From NCBI GenBank assembly GCA_016839705.1, contig JAEOTR010000079.1:1-64000 (forward strand): DNA of 64,000 nucleotides. Direction: 5' to 3'. Position numbers and translations under genes: made by a program. The notes below the pieces were generated by a model that was given only the letters and a program-made list of their open reading frames with translations, was not told the DNA's origin and did not search any database. Positions 24,687 through 31,825 of the stretch are shown one piece after another; position 1 is the stretch's first letter, and each line of letters opens with the position of its first letter. Source of the stretch: Promethearchaeota archaeon. GTDB lineage: Archaea; Asgardarchaeota; Lokiarchaeia; Sigyniarchaeales; SOKP01.

Positions 24687-24884
24687 TTATGTTTTCTTTT
24701 TCCTTACCAGTCTTAAAAAGTAAAAAACAGACATGATGATTCCTAAAGTAAGAATAATACCTATAAAACCAGCAACATAATCGTTTGAGATCCAATTTAA
24801 GAAAGGTATCCAAGGAGAAGCGAGATTATCCAGCCATTCTTCTCCGTATTGATGTTGTAATAAAATCCGGTTTAACCTTATCAT
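24687..24884 (-). CDS. small single-TM (tail-anchored-like) protein, 65 aa
   Basis: ATG preceded by a purine-rich run; C-terminal hydrophobic helix followed by RLVRKKKT. Confidence 0.55.
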   Translation of the reverse strand: MIRLNRILLQHQYGEEWLDNLASPWIPFLNWISNDYVAGFIGIILTLGIIMSVFYFLRLVRKKKT

Positions 24885-24939
24885 ATGATGATATTCTCTC
24901 TCTTTTTACAGAAAAAGAATAAAGCTTAAATGATTAAAA

Positions 24940-25258
24940 GTGGCATAGATTTAGCCTAAGGACACTAACACGATATTTTCATTTTAGGGTAATGCCTTTA
25001 AAATCAAATACGTTCTCTCGTGCTAGGCAATAACCTCTATGCGCTTTTGGGGCCATAATCATGTCTGCAATCTAGGGATTACTGACTCAATCCTCATTGC
25101 ACTGGTGTTTACCTTTGCTAAGATAAGAGCCCATATAGTTTATGCATTTTTTGATTATTAAACTCAAGATTTTCGCGTTGTTTTGCACTACATAATCATT
25201 TTTTAGTCATATAAGTCCTCGATAACGCGGTTTTTTCCGTCATCGTGTTCCCGTTACT
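24940..25258 (-). ncRNA. putative structured ncRNA / long 5' leader
   Basis: Intergenic, GC-richer than flanks, no credible ORF; multiple stems with G-U pairs favouring the minus strand; TTTTATAA box at about 25276-25283. Confidence 0.5.
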
Positions 25259-25287
25259 ATAACAGAATAATAAGGTTATAAAATTAT

Positions 25288-25785
25288 TTATTTTTTCGTG
25301 AAAGGAAAAGGTTCTTTTTTACTTATGCCTTTGATCTTATCTTCAATTCTTAAAATTAAGCTTTGTAAGCAATTAAAGAGAATTTTTCTTATTATTTCAT
25401 AGTTAAGGTCGATTTCAATATCATTATCATGAAATTCATCAAATTTATAAAAGGCTTTGTAAACATTTTCAGTTTTTAGGATTTTATAAGAAGAATCGAC
25501 TAAAAAAGCATATAAATCTTCACTGTTATATTCGATTTTCATTATTAGAGAAAGCATAGCAAATTCTTTTTTACCACGAGCCCACTTAGACGGAAGCTCA
25601 AAATGGAAATTGATGATTTTCTTTTTCTTTGTAATAAGAACGATTTCAAAAAATGTGTCATCGATCTCTAAGTCAAAAAATTTCTTTAACTTATTTATGA
25701 TGTTTTCTTCTAGTCTTTCATCTGGAAAGGAAAGTAACACACTTGGACCTTGTATCCCGTCAAAATAAGACAAAACTAAATGCAC
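25288..25785 (-). CDS. longin/uDENN-like domain protein
   Basis: N-terminal LSYFDGIQGP motif typical of uDENN/NPR2-like longin folds, then beta-rich WARGKKEFAMLSL. Confidence 0.6.
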   Translation of the reverse strand: MHLVLSYFDGIQGPSVLLSFPDERLEENIINKLKKFFDLEIDDTFFEIVLITKKKKIINFHFELPSKWARGKKEFAMLSLIMKIEYNSEDLYAFLVDSSYKILKTENVYKAFYKFDEFHDNDIEIDLNYEIIRKILFNCLQSLILRIEDKIKGISKKEPFPFTKK

Positions 25786-25822
25786 CTAAATACTCACCAG
25801 ATGGTTATAATATTTTTTTAGC

Positions 25823-26293
25823 TTACAACAATCCAACGGAATCGGATCGAAACAATTCTTTCATTTCCTTGCTCATTTGACCCTGTTCTGCTTGTAAATA
25901 CTGATTTAGTATTGCAGCAATACGGGGTGCATGTTTTTTCATAGTAGCAATAATGAAACCAATTTGAACTTTTTTATCAGTAGCAATACATAAAACTCCT
26001 TTCCCTACTTTCATTGAAAAGATCATTCCTTCAAAATATTCTGTAATCTGTAAGGATATATTTCCATATCCTAAGATATGGCCTTGTTCTTCCCCAGCAA
26101 TAAAGACTGCGCCCCCAATCGCACCAATTTTTTCAATGGATATTGTATTATTATCAGAAAAAGTAAATTTAGATTGACTCAAAATAGTAATTCCTGTATC
26201 ATCAACAATTACTGCATATTTCAATCCAGGAGTACTATTGATAATATTATTTAGAATTTTTTTTAATTTTAACTCATCTTCTGAAAAACTCAA
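25823..26293 (-). CDS. Roadblock/LC7 domain protein
   Basis: helix-GLKYAVIVDDTGITI-helix (KIGAIGGA)-three strands-helix pattern. Confidence 0.85.
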   Translation of the reverse strand: MSFSEDELKLKKILNNIINSTPGLKYAVIVDDTGITILSQSKFTFSDNNTISIEKIGAIGGAVFIAGEEQGHILGYGNISLQITEYFEGMIFSMKVGKGVLCIATDKKVQIGFIIATMKKHAPRIAAILNQYLQAEQGQMSKEMKELFRSDSVGLL

Positions 26294-26498
26294 ATGTATG
26301 TCAACCTAATAAGTGTTATAACGATATAAAATGGTTTTCTTAGATTTTAAAACTATTTATTAAAACCTAACGTTATATTTTTTCTCAAACCTACTTTAGT
26401 AAATGATGAAATTTTATGTATAAAAATTTTAGTAAACTTTATGTTTTTTTACGGTTCGCTATAAAAAACTCTAATTAATCTGTTTGGAGATTAAAATC

Positions 26499-26834
26499 CT
26501 AGAAAAGTTCCTGTGATTTAATTAAGGTTTTTAGAGGTTTTAAACGATTTTTGTAATCCTTAGATTTTTCTAATAAAATCATTAACCTATAGTTTTTGCT
26601 CTTATCTAAATCACGCTTTATTTGAACCAACTTAGAGTCTTCTATAAAATCACGATTTTTTGTAATGGCAGATAATGCTAAAGTGTTTTCAAGTACCCAT
26701 AATTTCTTAGAAATCTTACTGGCTAAAGGAAAACCATGTTTGTCGGTAATAATTCCTGCTACAAAATTAGGGAAGTTTTTTTCTATCCTATATAAGAAGT
26801 AATTAACATCATCTTGATTTAGTATATTACCCAA
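26499..26834 (-). CDS. Roadblock/LC7-like protein
   Basis: FVAGIITDKHGFPLASKI motif. Confidence 0.6.
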   Translation of the reverse strand: MGNILNQDDVNYFLYRIEKNFPNFVAGIITDKHGFPLASKISKKLWVLENTLALSAITKNRDFIEDSKLVQIKRDLDKSKNYRLMILLEKSKDYKNRLKPLKTLIKSQELF

Positions 26835-27157: not shown

Positions 27158-28135
27158 TTATTTCGAGGTTTTTTTTAATGATATACCCAGATTAAGGTTT
27201 TCAACAAGCTCACTAAAACGATTCCGAACAGTAACTTCTGTTACACAACTAACACGAGCTATACTTCTTTGAGTTCTACGTTCATTAGCAATAATACTTG
27301 AAGCATAAATCGCAGCAGCACATACACCTGTAGGCCCTCTACCTGAGGTCAATCCACGACTTTCTGCCATTCTAATAATTGATTTCGCTGTTTTCTGGCA
27401 TTCTGTTGTTAAATCTAACTCTGAAATAAATCTTGTAAGAAAATCCATTGGTTTAGTAGGATTTAGATTAAGCTCGAGCTCGATTGAAATAAATCTAAAC
27501 GATCGACTGATTTCTTTTTTGTCGACACGAGCAACTTCAGCAATTTCGTTCAACGTACGTGGTACTTTATACATTCTACATGCAGCATATAAACTTGCTG
27601 CTGCAACTCCTTCAATACTCCTACCACGGATTAAATGAGCACCAACAGCATCACGGTAAATTTTTGCGGCACACTCTCTTAAGTTTTTTTGAAGATCAAG
27701 ATTTGAAGCCATTCTATCAAGTTCACTAAGAGCAAATGTAAGGTTTCTTTCAGTTGCATCAGCTACTCTTATTCGACTTTGCCACTTTCGAAGTCTATAT
27801 ATTTGATCTCTTAATTTTGCAGGGATTTCCTTGCCAAAGATATCCTTGTTTTTCCAATCTATCATAGTACTGAGTCCTTTATCATGTATCATATACGTCA
27901 TAGGAGCACCGGTTCTAGTTCTCTTCTTCTTCTGATCTGCATCGAATGCTCTCCATTCTGGACCATTATCAATATATTTTTCGGAGTGTACTAAACCACA
28001 ATCTTCACAAACTAGCAAACCTCTATTTTCATCAAAAAATATATCATTCCCGCATTCTGTACAAATATCACCTTCTATTATCAAGTTTTCATTAGAACCC
28101 GAGTTTTTTTCTCTCCAACTTGAAATAGATACCAC
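27158..28135 (-). CDS. tfb: transcription initiation factor IIB
   Basis: Zn ribbon CTECG...CEDCG, GPEWRAF, two cyclin repeats, [14 protein letters not shown]. Confidence 0.97.
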
Positions 28136-28179
28136 CTTTTTAATTTAAAACTAATATTTCGATTAGAACTTGTTATAAA

Positions 28180-28434
28180 TTAAGGTAATTTTGTATAAAA
28201 CCTTAGATTAGGGTCAAATTGTGAATTTGGATGAGTTTTTATAGAAACAAATGGTAGGGTGATCGGACCAAAAATATCTTTTACTAAGCCTATGACTTTA
28301 TAGTTCTCATCATATATGGGTTGTTTTAAAATTCTCTCAAGATTATTATTCCATTGTTTTACTCTAAAAATTTGGTGCTTTTTTGCTGATTGTCCAATAT
28401 AGAATAGGTTTAATTTAACCCATTTTTTTTTCAA
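28180..28434 (-). CDS. gar1: Gar1/Naf1 H/ACA RNP protein
   Basis: IGLVKDIFGPITLPFVSIK; position next to tfb is typical of archaea. Confidence 0.85.
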   Translation of the reverse strand: MKKKWVKLNLFYIGQSAKKHQIFRVKQWNNNLERILKQPIYDENYKVIGLVKDIFGPITLPFVSIKTHPNSQFDPNLRFYTKLP

Positions 28435-28647
28435 GAGATCCCCTTGCTAAATAGAACAAAATTTAATTTAAAATTTAAGATGGTAGCTAATATTTAAATA
28501 TAATGTTTTTTACTAGTCAACGTTACAAAAATGGCAAATAAGTTATAGCTGGGTTTTCCATACAGGAGACGCTCAAGCAGTAAAATAAAGAAGCTGTTTC
28601 TTAATATTAAATTGTTAATAAGGACTTACAAATTAGTAGGCGTAAGT

Positions 28648-29760
28648 TTAGTAGAAATATTTTTGTAATTGATATTTTCTTCTACAATCGCATTCAACTT
28701 CCACGTTTTCTAATGAAGCTAATTCCTGAGAGAAGACAAAATGTTGAAGCCTATTTTGAGCGGTTTTCTCACATTCTCTTTTTAAACAATTATGAATCCC
28801 TCTTTTTGTTCCAGCTCCCGACGGATCAGAAATAACTCTTACTGTTGCTAGATCCTTTTGAGTTAGGGATTTTCTTAAGACTTTAAAAAGTGAATGAAAC
28901 CAAGGTGGGCGATATTTATTTTTGTACCATAAATATTCTGCAAGAGTTCCTCGCTGAATATTTAAAGGATTAATGGATATAGTATTGATTTTTAAATCAA
29001 TTAACTTTCTAATAGAATTTATACAATCATCGATTGCTCCTGCTTCGTTGAGGAAGGGAGGTTTAAGCAATAGATAAGCTTTTAAACCTACCGTATTTTC
29101 TTTACAAATTTGTAATATATTTTTAAAATCCTCAAATCTCATGCCTTTATTTATGTAAATATTTCTGAAATAATCATTAACAGTCTCAATTCCAATCGCA
29201 ACTTCAGTATATTTTCCTTTTAGTTTTTCTTTAAGATCTTTAAGTTTTTCTGCGTCTATATACTCTAAACGACTTTCTATCGTGAATTCTTTAATATTTT
29301 CAATAGTTACAACCTTTTCATAGATATATTGCCTAGTTTCTTCAGATATTTCATTTTCATCGAAAAAGCTACCGGAATTGAATATTTTTAAAGAGTACTT
29401 CTCATCATCCTCTGAGATTTCATTAATTTTATTGTTTAACACATAATCTATTTGACTTTGTAATTGTTTTTGATTTACTTCTTCAATATTAGCATCTTGA
29501 ATGTAACCACACATTGTACATCCACCAGTCTCACCTAAAGACCAACTACACCCCTTTGTTCTTAGAATAATAGTTAATGTTTTCCCAACTTCACGGATAA
29601 GTCTGTCCTTTTTAATCCAAAAACTAACAGGGCGGTTCAAATCGGTTCCACTAATTCGTTTCCTCTTTTTCAAGGCTTTTTGCCTGATAGATTTTATTCT
29701 CTCAGAGAATAATTGTTGATAATTATTAGAACTGCTATTTTTTCTCACTAATTTTAACAA
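28648..29760 (-). CDS. archaeosine biosynthesis radical SAM protein RaSEA
   Basis: LRTKGCSW...GGCTMCGY, FNSGSFFD, KAYLLLKPPFL, YRPPW, RGIHNC; adjacent to arcS. Confidence 0.9.
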   Translation of the reverse strand: MLKLVRKNSSSNNYQQLFSERIKSIRQKALKKRKRISGTDLNRPVSFWIKKDRLIREVGKTLTIILRTKGCSWSLGETGGCTMCGYIQDANIEEVNQKQLQSQIDYVLNNKINEISEDDEKYSLKIFNSGSFFDENEISEETRQYIYEKVVTIENIKEFTIESRLEYIDAEKLKDLKEKLKGKYTEVAIGIETVNDYFRNIYINKGMRFEDFKNILQICKENTVGLKAYLLLKPPFLNEAGAIDDCINSIRKLIDLKINTISINPLNIQRGTLAEYLWYKNKYRPPWFHSLFKVLRKSLTQKDLATVRVISDPSGAGTKRGIHNCLKRECEKTAQNRLQHFVFSQELASLENVEVECDCRRKYQLQKYFY

Positions 29761-31825
29761 CTCTCCCTGTTTTAGAATTTTTAATAAAATTTGAGCCGAC
29801 AGTTAGCGTACCAGTTCCAATTATCTCCTTTTTTTCTTTATCAATAATGATGACACAATTATTAGAGATCAGATCTGGACTAAATTCTAAGATGCCTTGT
29901 CGAAATAGATTATTACCTCGAATATTTTCCCCATCAAAAACGATTAGATTAGAATCAATAGAAAATGGTAATTGAACCATTCTTTCCAATCCGTGTATCG
30001 TTAAAATTATTTGACCTGATGAAGTACTAAATACTCCTAATTTTTTCTTAGTTTTTAAATCTATCAAGTCTATTTGTGAACTAGAATGAATTTTGATGGG
30101 ATATAGTTCGTTTTTAATAATATTGCGTCCTGATTCCTGACCAAATTGATAATCTAAAATTTTTACAAATTTTCTAATCCATTTGTTAGATAAATAACCA
30201 CTTTCAGGTATTTTTTTTAAAGGTTTAAAATCCTTTATATGCTGCTCTACTATTGACTTGAGAGATTTAAGAGATTCTTTAGAAGTCACTTTTTCATCAA
30301 CATTTGTAAAGTAGAATTTATGCGGTAAGTTAGAATTGACTTTTTCAGCAATTTCACGATAATCACTCTCAAGATGACAAATTATCGGTATATTTTCATC
30401 ATATTTTGTCAGAATTTGGTATAACATACCTGCAGTAATTTCTTTTTCACTATCATCCCATTCTCCGGTAACAGATATATCATATAAATTAACGGGATAA
30501 ACGTTTTCTAGCTGTCTTGGAATAGCTCCAAGAGGTGATGTTAGAATAATTTCTTGAAAATCAGTGAACTCTGGAAACTTCCCAAGCACACTGTGAAAAA
30601 GTTTATGTGATTTTGAGAATGAATAAGGTTTCTTAGCTGAACAGGGTAGTAAAATAATCATAGTTGTCCAAGTCTCTGGTACAAAATTTCTAATCGTTCT
30701 TAACCTAAATTCACTAAAATCAGGTCTATAATATGAGGAAAGTCCTAGACATTTAATTTTTTTAACTTTTTGGGTGATTGGGGTTTCATACCGGATGGTA
30801 TCAAAATAATCTTTATCCAAAATTTTCAACATTGAAATTAAGGCTGTATCATCAAGAGATGACTTTTCGACAAATACTCTATAATCTTCATACCGTAGAT
30901 ATTGTTTGATTTTCATCATGTAATTATAGGCTGTTATTAGGTTATGTAAGCAGAGTAAATCTATCTTTTCACTAGAATATTTAGCATCAACTAGATTTTT
31001 TAAGTTTCCTTTACATACAATGCAAGAGCATGTCAAATATTTTACTTTATATATTGGAAGTAAATATTCTATTGTATCATATAAACTTTCTGCCGATAAG
31101 TATAGTAAAAAGGAGGTGTCAATTAGGTCTACCCCTAGGTAAACCAACATAGGAAAATATTTAGGAATTATTCTCCCAGATGCCATAATAACAATATTGT
31201 TATCCAACTGTGTTTTTATTTCGATAATAGTGGTTATAATCTTCCTAAAATTGCTAAAGTTATCAAATAAATCAACTAAATTGAGGATTTTTATGTTATC
31301 ATTTTCCTTAATTATTGGGAGATAAAGAGATATTAACTCTGAATAATCAAAAAGTCTAATTGATAAACCAAAACTAATTGTGGGATGAACTTTTAAAATT
31401 TTGACCACGTTAGTAAGATAATTTCTAATTTCACTCTGTGCAAATTCTCTCCCAATTGTCGCTGAGGGAATGTTAAAAGGTATTATCGATATTACATTAT
31501 CTTTTGTGAAAATCTCCTTATTTTTATTTAAAATCTCTTCATAATTTTCGAAGATCCCAGGATAGGAAAAAATAAATCCTGTATTTTTGAATTTTTCTCT
31601 AAGAAAACCTATTTTCAAGAAAATTTCTTTAGATATAACGAATAAGTCATGATTTTCAAATTCTTGTATGAAACTAAATTGCTTCATTAAGACATTTTTA
31701 ATTGGGATTATGACATTAGGTGTTCTTATATAGAGTTTCCTCTCTTTTGATAAATTAATCCTACCTATTCTTGAAAAACCTATTCTATTTTCCAACAGTT
31801 CAAAAAAATGACTCATTCTCTTCAA
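29735..31825 (-). CDS. arcS: archaeosine synthase subunit alpha (TGT-like + PUA)
   Basis: LLPCSAKKPYSFSKSH, TSPLGAIPRQLE, YDISVTGEW, C-terminal PUA-like region. Confidence 0.9.
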   Translation of the reverse strand: MKRMSHFFELLENRIGFSRIGRINLSKERKLYIRTPNVIIPIKNVLMKQFSFIQEFENHDLFVISKEIFLKIGFLREKFKNTGFIFSYPGIFENYEEILNKNKEIFTKDNVISIIPFNIPSATIGREFAQSEIRNYLTNVVKILKVHPTISFGLSIRLFDYSELISLYLPIIKENDNIKILNLVDLFDNFSNFRKIITTIIEIKTQLDNNIVIMASGRIIPKYFPMLVYLGVDLIDTSFLLYLSAESLYDTIEYLLPIYKVKYLTCSCIVCKGNLKNLVDAKYSSEKIDLLCLHNLITAYNYMMKIKQYLRYEDYRVFVEKSSLDDTALISMLKILDKDYFDTIRYETPITQKVKKIKCLGLSSYYRPDFSEFRLRTIRNFVPETWTTMIILLPCSAKKPYSFSKSHKLFHSVLGKFPEFTDFQEIILTSPLGAIPRQLENVYPVNLYDISVTGEWDDSEKEITAGMLYQILTKYDENIPIICHLESDYREIAEKVNSNLPHKFYFTNVDEKVTSKESLKSLKSIVEQHIKDFKPLKKIPESGYLSNKWIRKFVKILDYQFGQESGRNIIKNELYPIKIHSSSQIDLIDLKTKKKLGVFSTSSGQIILTIHGLERMVQLPFSIDSNLIVFDGENIRGNNLFRQGILEFSPDLISNNCVIIIDKEKKEIIGTGTLTVGSNFIKNSKTGRVVKISEKK

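What the first reader, a model, noticed from the sequence alone, without database searches (positions are those of the whole stretch)
24940..25258. ~320-nt switch-like structured RNA ahead of a small tail-anchored protein
Seen (minus-strand sequences): 5' hairpin CGATGACG/CGTTATCG (25245-25220); TGCAAT-GA-GGATT..AATCC-CTAG-ATTGCA hairpin (25101-25066) inside GGGC/GCCC; long 3' hairpin with GCATAGA/TCTATGC (25042-24943) and CTAGCACGA/TCGTGTTAG. The 5' segment AACACGAT (25249-25242) is also perfectly complementary to ATCGTGTT (24974-24967), which is mutually exclusive with both local hairpins. G-U pairs favour the minus strand, a TATA-like box lies about 25 nt upstream and a short U-run follows. 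I could not match it to SRP, RNase P, C/D or H/ACA consensus. Inference: an uncharacterised ncRNA, riboswitch-like leader, or type-I-toxin-like leader controlling the 65-aa membrane peptide at 24687-24884.
Basis: partly seen in the sequence, partly recalled or inferred. Interest (0 to 1): 0.7.

Follow-up and report, generated by a model that had tools for sequence, protein, structure and literature searches.

The report
Three-hairpin H/ACA guide RNA, Asgard variant
This is a real, conserved RNA gene of about 310 bases in Asgard archaea that most likely guides pseudouridine formation at three or four conserved spots of the large ribosomal RNA; it is not a switch, and the small 'protein' behind it is the leftover end of a deleted cobalt-transporter gene.

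Summary
The structured RNA is real, but it is not a switch or a leader. It is single-copy in 107 of 117 family genomes and folds into three box H/ACA hairpins, each with a K-turn or K-loop, a pocket and an ANA box (93% of cells paired, 22 of 58 pairs covary). The pockets match 23S rRNA from relatives: hairpin 1 U2496 (textbook), hairpin 3 U1915/U1917, hairpin 2 U2586 and/or U2554 (E. coli numbering). Order and guide words match HgcG/Pab40/Pf7/Afu-4. A distant Asgard homologue hits both Rfam HgcG (43 bits, below the cut-off) and my model. Extra over HgcG: a C/D-like K-turn encloses hairpin 1 across Asgard, and further helices frame hairpins 2 and 3. The 65-aa ORF follows the RNA in 1 of 50 loci and is the C-terminal remnant of CbiM after an apparent deletion. 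Expression and pseudouridylation were not tested. The scan found this RNA before on other genomes. New variant of a known kind; modest interest.

The parts
25276..25283 (-). TATA-like box about 25 nt upstream of the predicted 5' end
   Evidence: Sequence; position conserved in homologues. Function inferred.
24936..25253 (-). Whole RNA gene, about 310-318 nt; ends are predicted from conservation, not mapped
25249..25253 (-). 5' strand of closing helix P0; pairs with 25052-25048 and closes hairpins 1 and 2
   Evidence: 95.5% of cells paired; also found unaided by RNAalifold
25237..25247 (-). C-box-like strand of the extra K-turn (3-bp stem, 3-nt bulge, GA, two pairs)
   Evidence: Helices 2 and 3 (92.6% and 98.9% paired, with double changes); motif table
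25174..25229 (-). H/ACA hairpin 1: lower stem, pocket (5' guide 25222-25217, 3' guide 25186-25183), upper stem and K-loop (25209-25195); predicted target 23S U2496
25170..25172 (-). ANA box 1 (AAA here; ACA, AUA or AAA in homologues), 14 nt from the start of the 3' guide
   Evidence: Both A columns invariant in 45 sequences; distance
25161..25168 (-). D-box-like strand of the extra K-turn that encloses hairpin 1
   Evidence: GA invariant
25152..25157 (-). 5' strand of the helix that encloses hairpin 2; pairs with 25061-25056
   Evidence: 99.3% paired, two pairs with double changes
25066..25146 (-). H/ACA hairpin 2: 5' guide 25134-25130, K-turn (25120-25119 with 25098-25094), 3' pocket strand 25084-25075; predicted target 23S U2586 and/or U2554; looks partly degenerate in this genome
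25062..25064 (-). ACA box 2
   Evidence: Both A columns invariant
24943..25042 (-). H/ACA hairpin 3 with outer helix (25042-25036 / 24949-24943): 5' guide 25019-25015, K-turn (25006-25004 with 24983-24979), 3' guide 24969-24965; predicted targets 23S U1915 and U1917 (helix 69)
24950..24952 (-). ANA box 3 (AAA here, ACA in most homologues)
24881..24922 (+). Last codons of the convergent ABC-ATPase gene (cbiO-like) that is otherwise missing here; its antisense strand supplies the ATG of the 65-aa ORF
24687..24884 (-). 65-aa ORF: C-terminal remnant of a CbiM-type cobalt/nickel ECF transporter gene; not part of the RNA system
   Evidence: 56% identity to residues 266-326 of a 339-aa CbiM protein; weak PDGLE hit
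28180..28434 (-). Gar1, one of the four H/ACA RNP proteins, 3 kb upstream beside tfb
   Evidence: Pfam Gar1, E 6e-8, over the cut-off

Best explanation
A stand-alone, three-motif archaeal box H/ACA guide RNA, most likely the Asgard counterpart of HgcG/Pab40/Pf7/Afu-4. How it works: the RNA is transcribed from its own TATA promoter (inferred). L7Ae binds the K-loop or K-turn of each hairpin, and Cbf5-Nop10-Gar1 bind the lower stem and ANA box (established for the class, not shown here). Each pocket pairs on both sides of a uridine in 23S pre-rRNA (pairing shown in silico with relatives' rRNA), and Cbf5 turns it into pseudouridine (inferred). Hairpin 1 targets U2496 (about 90%). Hairpin 3 targets helix-69 U1915 and probably U1917 with an enlarged unpaired stretch, as Haloferax sR-h45 does (about 80%). 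Hairpin 2 targets U2586 ancestrally (about 60%) and in this family may also or instead target A-loop U2554 (about 45%). A fourth, C/D-like K-turn and three extra helices frame the hairpins; most likely the K-turn binds one more L7Ae and the frame protects the ends and keeps the AU-rich RNA folded (inferred).
For: Single copy and conserved. Invariant columns are the guides, the GA steps and the ANA boxes. H/ACA model: 93.4% of cells paired, 22 of 58 pairs with double changes, against 34-45% when slid; RNAalifold finds both stems of hairpin 1, P0 and the stems of hairpin 3 unaided. Hairpin 1 ranks U2496 first of 1024 uridines; hairpin 2 ranks U2554, U2585 and U2586 first, second and fourth. The invariant guide words of hairpins 1 and 3 fit only U2496 and U1915/U1917 in 23S plus 16S. 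Numbering checked on an E. coli 23S. Homologue L203 hits Rfam HgcG (E 1.3e-10) and my hairpin-1 model (37.8 bits), and the HgcG consensus shows the same 5' guide of motif 1 and the same 3' guides of motifs 2 and 3. Pab40 motif 1 guides P. abyssi 2588 and motif 3 guides 2016 in helix 69 (PMC2377435). Cbf5, Nop10, Gar1 and L7Ae-family genes are in the genome.
Against: No Rfam hit for this sequence, and none to HgcG in its genome. The genome's own rRNA is not assembled, so targets come from relatives. Hairpins 2 and 3 break the textbook rules: 3-5 unpaired target bases, and ANA distances of 16-17 (U1915) and 13-20 (U2554). A crude G-U-tolerant score put U1917 second and U1915 fifth for hairpin 3. 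In this genome the plain energy model prefers other hairpins over hairpin 1 (K-turns and proteins are not modelled), and the 3' guide of hairpin 2 is weak. The sequences are kin, so covariation counts overstate.
Confidence: 0.92

Rival explanations
1. Riboswitch-like or type-I-toxin-like leader that switches between local hairpins and a 5'-3' pairing to control the 65-aa membrane peptide.
For: The 8-bp complement and both local hairpins exist in this genome; the ORF has one hydrophobic helix (mean hydropathy 2.3) and starts about 50 nt downstream.
Against: The 8-bp pairing is not conserved and is at chance level. The ORF follows the RNA in 1 of 50 loci; most homologues end at a convergent gene. 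The ORF is a CbiM fragment whose ATG comes from the antisense strand of another gene's remnant.
Confidence: 0.01
2. Nested composite C/D-H/ACA RNP: the extra motif is a true C/D motif that recruits Nop5 and fibrillarin as well as L7Ae, as in eukaryotic U85-type scaRNAs (U85 layout from my own knowledge).
For: The 5' strand often reads as a full C box and the partner as a D-like box; the motif with covarying stems is kept in distant Asgard homologues and is missing from the HgcG consensus.
Against: No conserved antisense guide lies upstream of the D-like box: that stretch is the lower stem and ANA box of hairpin 1 and varies. The D-like box varies at the positions that are CU in true D boxes. 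No C'/D' pair was seen. A plain K-turn explains the same letters.
Confidence: 0.07
3. An H/ACA-fold RNA with another main job (pre-rRNA chaperone, like snR30/U17 or snR10), whose atypical pockets 2 and 3 pair with rRNA without modifying it.
For: Pockets 2 and 3 break the 14-16 nt and two-unpaired-base rules; pocket 2 can pair with both strands of helix 92. In P. abyssi many predicted sites proved inactive (PMC2377435).
Against: Pocket 1 is textbook. Haloferax sR-h45 modifies both helix-69 uridines with four unpaired bases and distances of 17 and 19 (PMC7075261). Distant homologues keep the U2586 guide at exactly 14 nt.
Confidence: 0.06
4. A divergent SRP RNA or RNase P RNA.
For: Length about 310 nt, single copy; no SRP RNA was found in this genome with RF01857.
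Against: RNase P RNA lies elsewhere (C1:10811-11133, 129 bits). No SRP or RNase P hit at E up to 10. The conserved elements are explained by the H/ACA anatomy.
Confidence: 0.01

Closest known systems
HgcG / Pab40 / Pf7 / Pho40 / Afu-4 three-motif H/ACA sRNA (Rfam RF00064; PMC2377435, PMC4652768)
   Same: Three motifs in the same order; K-loop in motif 1; same 5' guide in motif 1, same 3' guides in motifs 2 and 3. Motif 1 target P. abyssi 2588 equals U2496 (same guide words; offset 92 inferred), motif 3 target is helix 69. The two sites argued for Afu-4 motif 2 (P. abyssi 2647 and 2678) map by that offset to about 2554/2555 and to 2586, the two sites predicted here.
   Different: Sequence too far for the Rfam model (no hit here; 43 of 77 bits in the best Asgard homologue). 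A C/D-like K-turn encloses hairpin 1, and helices enclose hairpin 2, hairpins 1+2 and hairpin 3; the HgcG consensus has no K-turn around motif 1. The 5' guide of hairpin 3 leaves more of helix 69 unpaired. AU-rich, 33-40% GC.
Haloferax volcanii sR-h45 (PMC7075261, PMC2584109)
   Same: One hairpin for both helix-69 uridines with four unpaired target bases and long ACA distances; another for the U2586 site; both described as homologues of Pf7 stems.
   Different: Two hairpins with a long spacer; no U2496 hairpin; no enclosing K-turn described.
Pab21 / snoR9 (RF00065), archaeal H/ACA plus C/D transcript
   Same: H/ACA motif and C/D-type motif in one RNA.
   Different: In Pab21 the two modules lie in tandem and a form without the C/D part exists; here the C/D-like motif encloses a hairpin and has no methylation guide.
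Eukaryotic guides for the same sites: snR191 and U19 (helix 69; PMC7075261), snR46 (yeast 2865) and snR10 (yeast 2923) (the last two from my own knowledge)
   Same: Same rRNA positions.
   Different: Two-hairpin snoRNAs with an H box and no K-turns; separate RNAs per site. No sequence relation was tested.

Membership tests
Archaeal box H/ACA guide RNA | Hairpin with lower stem, internal pocket and upper stem | tested here: met
   Three hairpins. Lower stem of hairpin 2 read per sequence (two covarying types), not counted.
Archaeal box H/ACA guide RNA | K-turn or K-loop about 10 layers above the pocket | tested here: met
   Invariant UGA steps in all three hairpins; 9-10 layers counted by hand from the sequence; rule from PMC4652768. 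The non-bulge G of K-turn 2 varies.
Archaeal box H/ACA guide RNA | ANA box after each hairpin | tested here: met
   Boxes 1 and 2 invariant in 45 sequences; box 3 present in all 36 tabulated.
Archaeal box H/ACA guide RNA | 14-16 nt from pocket to ANA box | tested here: inconclusive
   Hairpin 1: 14 in 35 of 36. Hairpin 3: mostly 16-17 for U1915, so 14-15 for U1917. Hairpin 2: 14 for U2586 in most, 13-20 for U2554.
Archaeal box H/ACA guide RNA | Two-part complementarity around a uridine of rRNA | tested here: met
   with rRNA of relatives; targets identical in 10 family 23S sequences except A/U at 2555.
Archaeal box H/ACA guide RNA | Cbf5, Nop10, Gar1 and L7Ae encoded | tested here: met
   (two L7Ae-family genes; which one is L7Ae was not resolved).
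Archaeal box H/ACA guide RNA | Binds Cbf5/L7Ae and directs pseudouridine formation | not testable with these tools
   Needs reconstitution or rRNA modification mapping.
Archaeal box H/ACA guide RNA | Expressed as a discrete RNA | not tested
Rfam HgcG / Pab40 (RF00064) | Reaches the family's gathering score (77 bits) | tested here: not met
   No hit in the window or genome; best Asgard homologue 43 bits. So not filed as an RF00064 member; orthology is inferred.
Rfam HgcG / Pab40 (RF00064) | Three motifs, same order, same guide words and targets | tested here: met
   HgcG consensus; bridge sequence L203 scores with both models.
Box C/D methylation guide | C box and D box forming a terminal K-turn | tested here: met
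   Found in 49 of 50 close and most of 13 more distant homologues; D-like box is degenerate.
Box C/D methylation guide | Conserved 10-12 nt antisense guide upstream of a D or D' box | tested here: not met
   By inspection of the alignments: that stretch is the variable lower stem plus ANA box of hairpin 1. No separate complementarity scan was run.
Riboswitch or translational leader | Conserved position upstream of a co-oriented gene of one function | tested here: not met
Riboswitch or translational leader | Conserved mutually exclusive pairings | tested here: not met
Type I toxin-antitoxin | Stand-alone small membrane toxin linked to the RNA | tested here: not met
   The ORF is a transporter fragment and is unlinked elsewhere.

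The most novel reading that the evidence does not exclude
The Asgard-wide C/D-like motif around hairpin 1 is a true C/D protein-binding site (L7Ae plus Nop5/fibrillarin), making this a nested composite C/D-H/ACA RNP in the archaeal relatives of eukaryotes, a layout otherwise known from U85-type scaRNAs.
Probability: 0.07. Interest if true: 0.72.

Novelty: new variant of a known kind. Interest (0 to 1): 0.32.

Why it matters
It fills an annotation gap: an H/ACA guide that Rfam misses in nearly every genome of this Lokiarchaeia-type family, and for which I found no description in the papers searched. It predicts pseudouridines at U2496, U1915/U1917 and U2586/U2554 in Asgard 23S rRNA, sites in the peptidyl-transferase region and helix 69, of which the helix-69 and 2496 sites are also modified in eukaryotes (PMC7075261, PMC2377435). 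That is testable in cultured Lokiarchaeia. The framed layout with a fourth K-turn is a structural variant worth one binding experiment. The class and mechanism are known, so the surprise is modest.

Tried and rejected
Rfam scan of the region at E up to 10: only chance hits. SRP and HgcG models on the own genome: no match; RNase P RNA is elsewhere. Own rRNA is not assembled. A first target scan that demanded exactly two unpaired bases found only hairpin 1's site and missed hairpins 2 and 3. An unfiltered column-pair scan was swamped by G-U pairs and was not used. A pattern search meant to fetch Pyrococcus or Archaeoglobus rRNA returned only other archaea, so the P. abyssi-to-E. coli offset is inferred from the papers. 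The bacterial promoter/terminator scan is uninformative for an archaeon. Two scripts stopped part-way; the tables they printed are used, and the rest was rerun. I first assigned hairpin 2 to U2554 alone; distant homologues lack that 3' guide but keep the U2586 guide, so U2586 is now preferred. SECIS, U3-like and bulge-helix-bulge readings were considered from the sequence and dropped because the H/ACA anatomy explains the same motifs.

Full report
Observation. The region is an intergenic stretch between a 165-aa gene (25288-25785) and a 65-aa ORF upstream of a trmY-like gene. Folded alone it is only mildly more stable than shuffles on either strand, and Rfam gives nothing. It is, however, strongly conserved: one copy in this genome, BLAST hits in 58 of 60 family genomes, and hits to a model of its first hairpin in 107 of 117 family genomes plus four genomes of other families of the class. 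A model of the third hairpin reaches several other families of the phylum weakly; several of those loci proved to be true homologues.

The 5'-to-3' 'switch' pairing is 8 bp only in this genome and 2-5 bp in 44 homologues. On the alignment 65% of its cells pair, with four of eight pairs broken in about half or more of the sequences. It has zero weight in the ensemble, and 48.5% of dinucleotide shuffles contain such an 8-bp inverted pair. The long 3' hairpin is real.

What the RNA is. The invariant columns of a 45-sequence alignment fall into three repeats of one design: lower stem, pocket, upper stem, a K-loop or K-turn built on AUGA, and an ANA triplet after the hairpin. A hand-built H/ACA model of 58 pairs has 93.4% of cells paired and 22 pairs with changes on both sides, against 34-45% paired when slid by 1-3 columns. 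The sequences are related and the model was drawn from them, so these numbers overstate; but RNAalifold recovers both stems of hairpin 1, the closing helix and the stems of hairpin 3 unaided. The four H/ACA proteins are encoded: Cbf5, Nop10, Gar1 3 kb upstream in the window and two L7Ae-family genes.

Targets. This genome has no assembled rRNA, so I used rRNA from relatives; the target stretches are the same in ten family 23S sequences apart from A/U at 2555. Numbering was checked on an E. coli 23S. Hairpin 1 pairs on both sides of U2496 with exactly two unpaired bases and the ANA box 14 nt away in 35 of 36 homologues; it ranks first of 1024 uridines and is the only site that fits the invariant guide words. 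Hairpin 3's invariant words fit only U1915 and U1917 in helix 69 under Watson-Crick pairing, with 3-5 unpaired target bases; a looser score ranks these fifth and second. Haloferax sR-h45 modifies the same two uridines with one hairpin in just such an atypical setting (PMC7075261). Hairpin 2 has two candidate sites, A-loop U2554 and U2585/U2586. Distant homologues lack the A-loop 3' guide but keep the U2586 guide exactly 14 nt from ACA, so U2586 is the likely ancestral site. In this genome that guide is imperfect and the A-loop guide lies 20 nt from the box, so hairpin 2 may be weak here; one clade of close relatives has lost the U2586 guide and keeps the A-loop one at 13 nt.

Closest known RNA. 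Pab40/Pf7/Afu-4 (Rfam HgcG) has three motifs; motif 1 guides P. abyssi 2588 and motif 3 guides 2016 in helix 69 (PMC2377435), and for Afu-4 motif 2 the sites equal to P. abyssi 2647 and 2678 have both been proposed (PMC4652768). With an offset of 92 (inferred: 2678 is the site modified in H. marismortui, 2621 in that numbering, which I take as E. coli 2586 from my own knowledge), these are U2496, helix 69, about U2554/2555 and U2586. The window sequence does not score with RF00064, but a homologue from a distant Asgard genome (L203) scores 43 bits, E 1.3e-10, below the cut-off of 77, and also scores 37.8 bits with my hairpin-1 model. The HgcG consensus printed carries the same 5' guide in motif 1 and the same 3' guides in motifs 2 and 3. 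So it works like HgcG and is probably its orthologue, but it is not a formal RF00064 member.

What is different. A C-box-like strand at the 5' end and a D-box-like strand just after ANA box 1 form a fourth K-turn that encloses hairpin 1. Its stems covary (helices 2 and 3), it is present in 49 of 50 close homologues and in most distant ones including L203, and the HgcG consensus has no such element. A 6-bp helix encloses hairpin 2 (99% paired), a 5-bp helix joins the 5' end to the region after it, and an outer helix encloses hairpin 3 where both its strands are present. There is no conserved antisense guide before the D-like box, so a methylation-guide role is unsupported; an extra L7Ae site that stabilises the RNA is the simplest reading (inference).

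The 65-aa ORF. It follows the RNA in 1 of 50 loci; in most others the next gene is convergent, usually a roadblock gene. Its homologues lie in 42 of 53 genus genomes, in 34 of them as the end of a reading frame of about 290-365 aa and in most others in a frame of about 100 aa. Residues 4-65 are 56% identical to the end of a 339-aa CbiM-type protein. In close relatives an ABC ATPase, cbiQ and cbiM lie between the RNA and trmY; here DNA similarity to the ATPase gene stops at about 24880 and similarity to cbiM starts at about 24875. About 2.7 kb are therefore missing, and the ORF's ATG is the antisense of the ATPase gene's last codons. A misassembly is not excluded.

Limits. Paper searches found no description of Asgard H/ACA RNAs, but the library is incomplete. 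I reached the H/ACA reading before looking at earlier scan notes (notes); the scan has reported the same RNA from at least five other genomes, which is not independent evidence.

Verdict. Real RNA gene; known class and mechanism; a framed, four-K-turn Asgard variant that Rfam misses. Interest 0.32.

Noticed in passing
window 24687-24922: Apparent deletion of about 2.7 kb that removed the cbiO/cbiQ/cbiM cobalt-nickel ECF transporter genes and left a chimeric 65-aa ORF; could also be a misassembly.
   Followed up: partly
L084 (G038:C48:89800-94200) and L092 (G111:C87:36000-40400): Relatives' 23S rRNA genes carry insertions just after helix 69 (30 and 31 nt) and, in L084, 125 nt in the helix-93 region; they may be archaeal rRNA introns.
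   Followed up: no
L200:181-258 (G141:C17:42380-42457, minus): A second, isolated copy of hairpin 3 with an altered 5' guide lies about 600 nt downstream of the full RNA in one genome.
   Followed up: no
L186:1389-1590 (G253): A distant Asgard homologue has only hairpins 1 and 3, with hairpin 2 missing, and still keeps the enclosing K-turn.
   Followed up: partly
L194 (G073:C831) and L184 (G192:C93): Hairpin 2 looks degenerate in L194; in L184 only a hairpin-3-like match was found.
   Followed up: no
G000 whole genome: No SRP RNA was found with RF01857 at E up to 10, and no rRNA genes are assembled, in a genome rated 93% complete.
   Followed up: no
window 25288-26834: Two roadblock-type genes and a 165-aa gene without a Pfam hit lie upstream; in relatives the RNA sits beside or between these genes in several orientations, so the block has been rearranged repeatedly.
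   Followed up: partly
window 27158-31825: tfb, gar1, a radical-SAM gene and an archaeosine-synthase-like TGT/PUA gene form an RNA-modification neighbourhood with the guide RNA and trmY.
   Followed up: no
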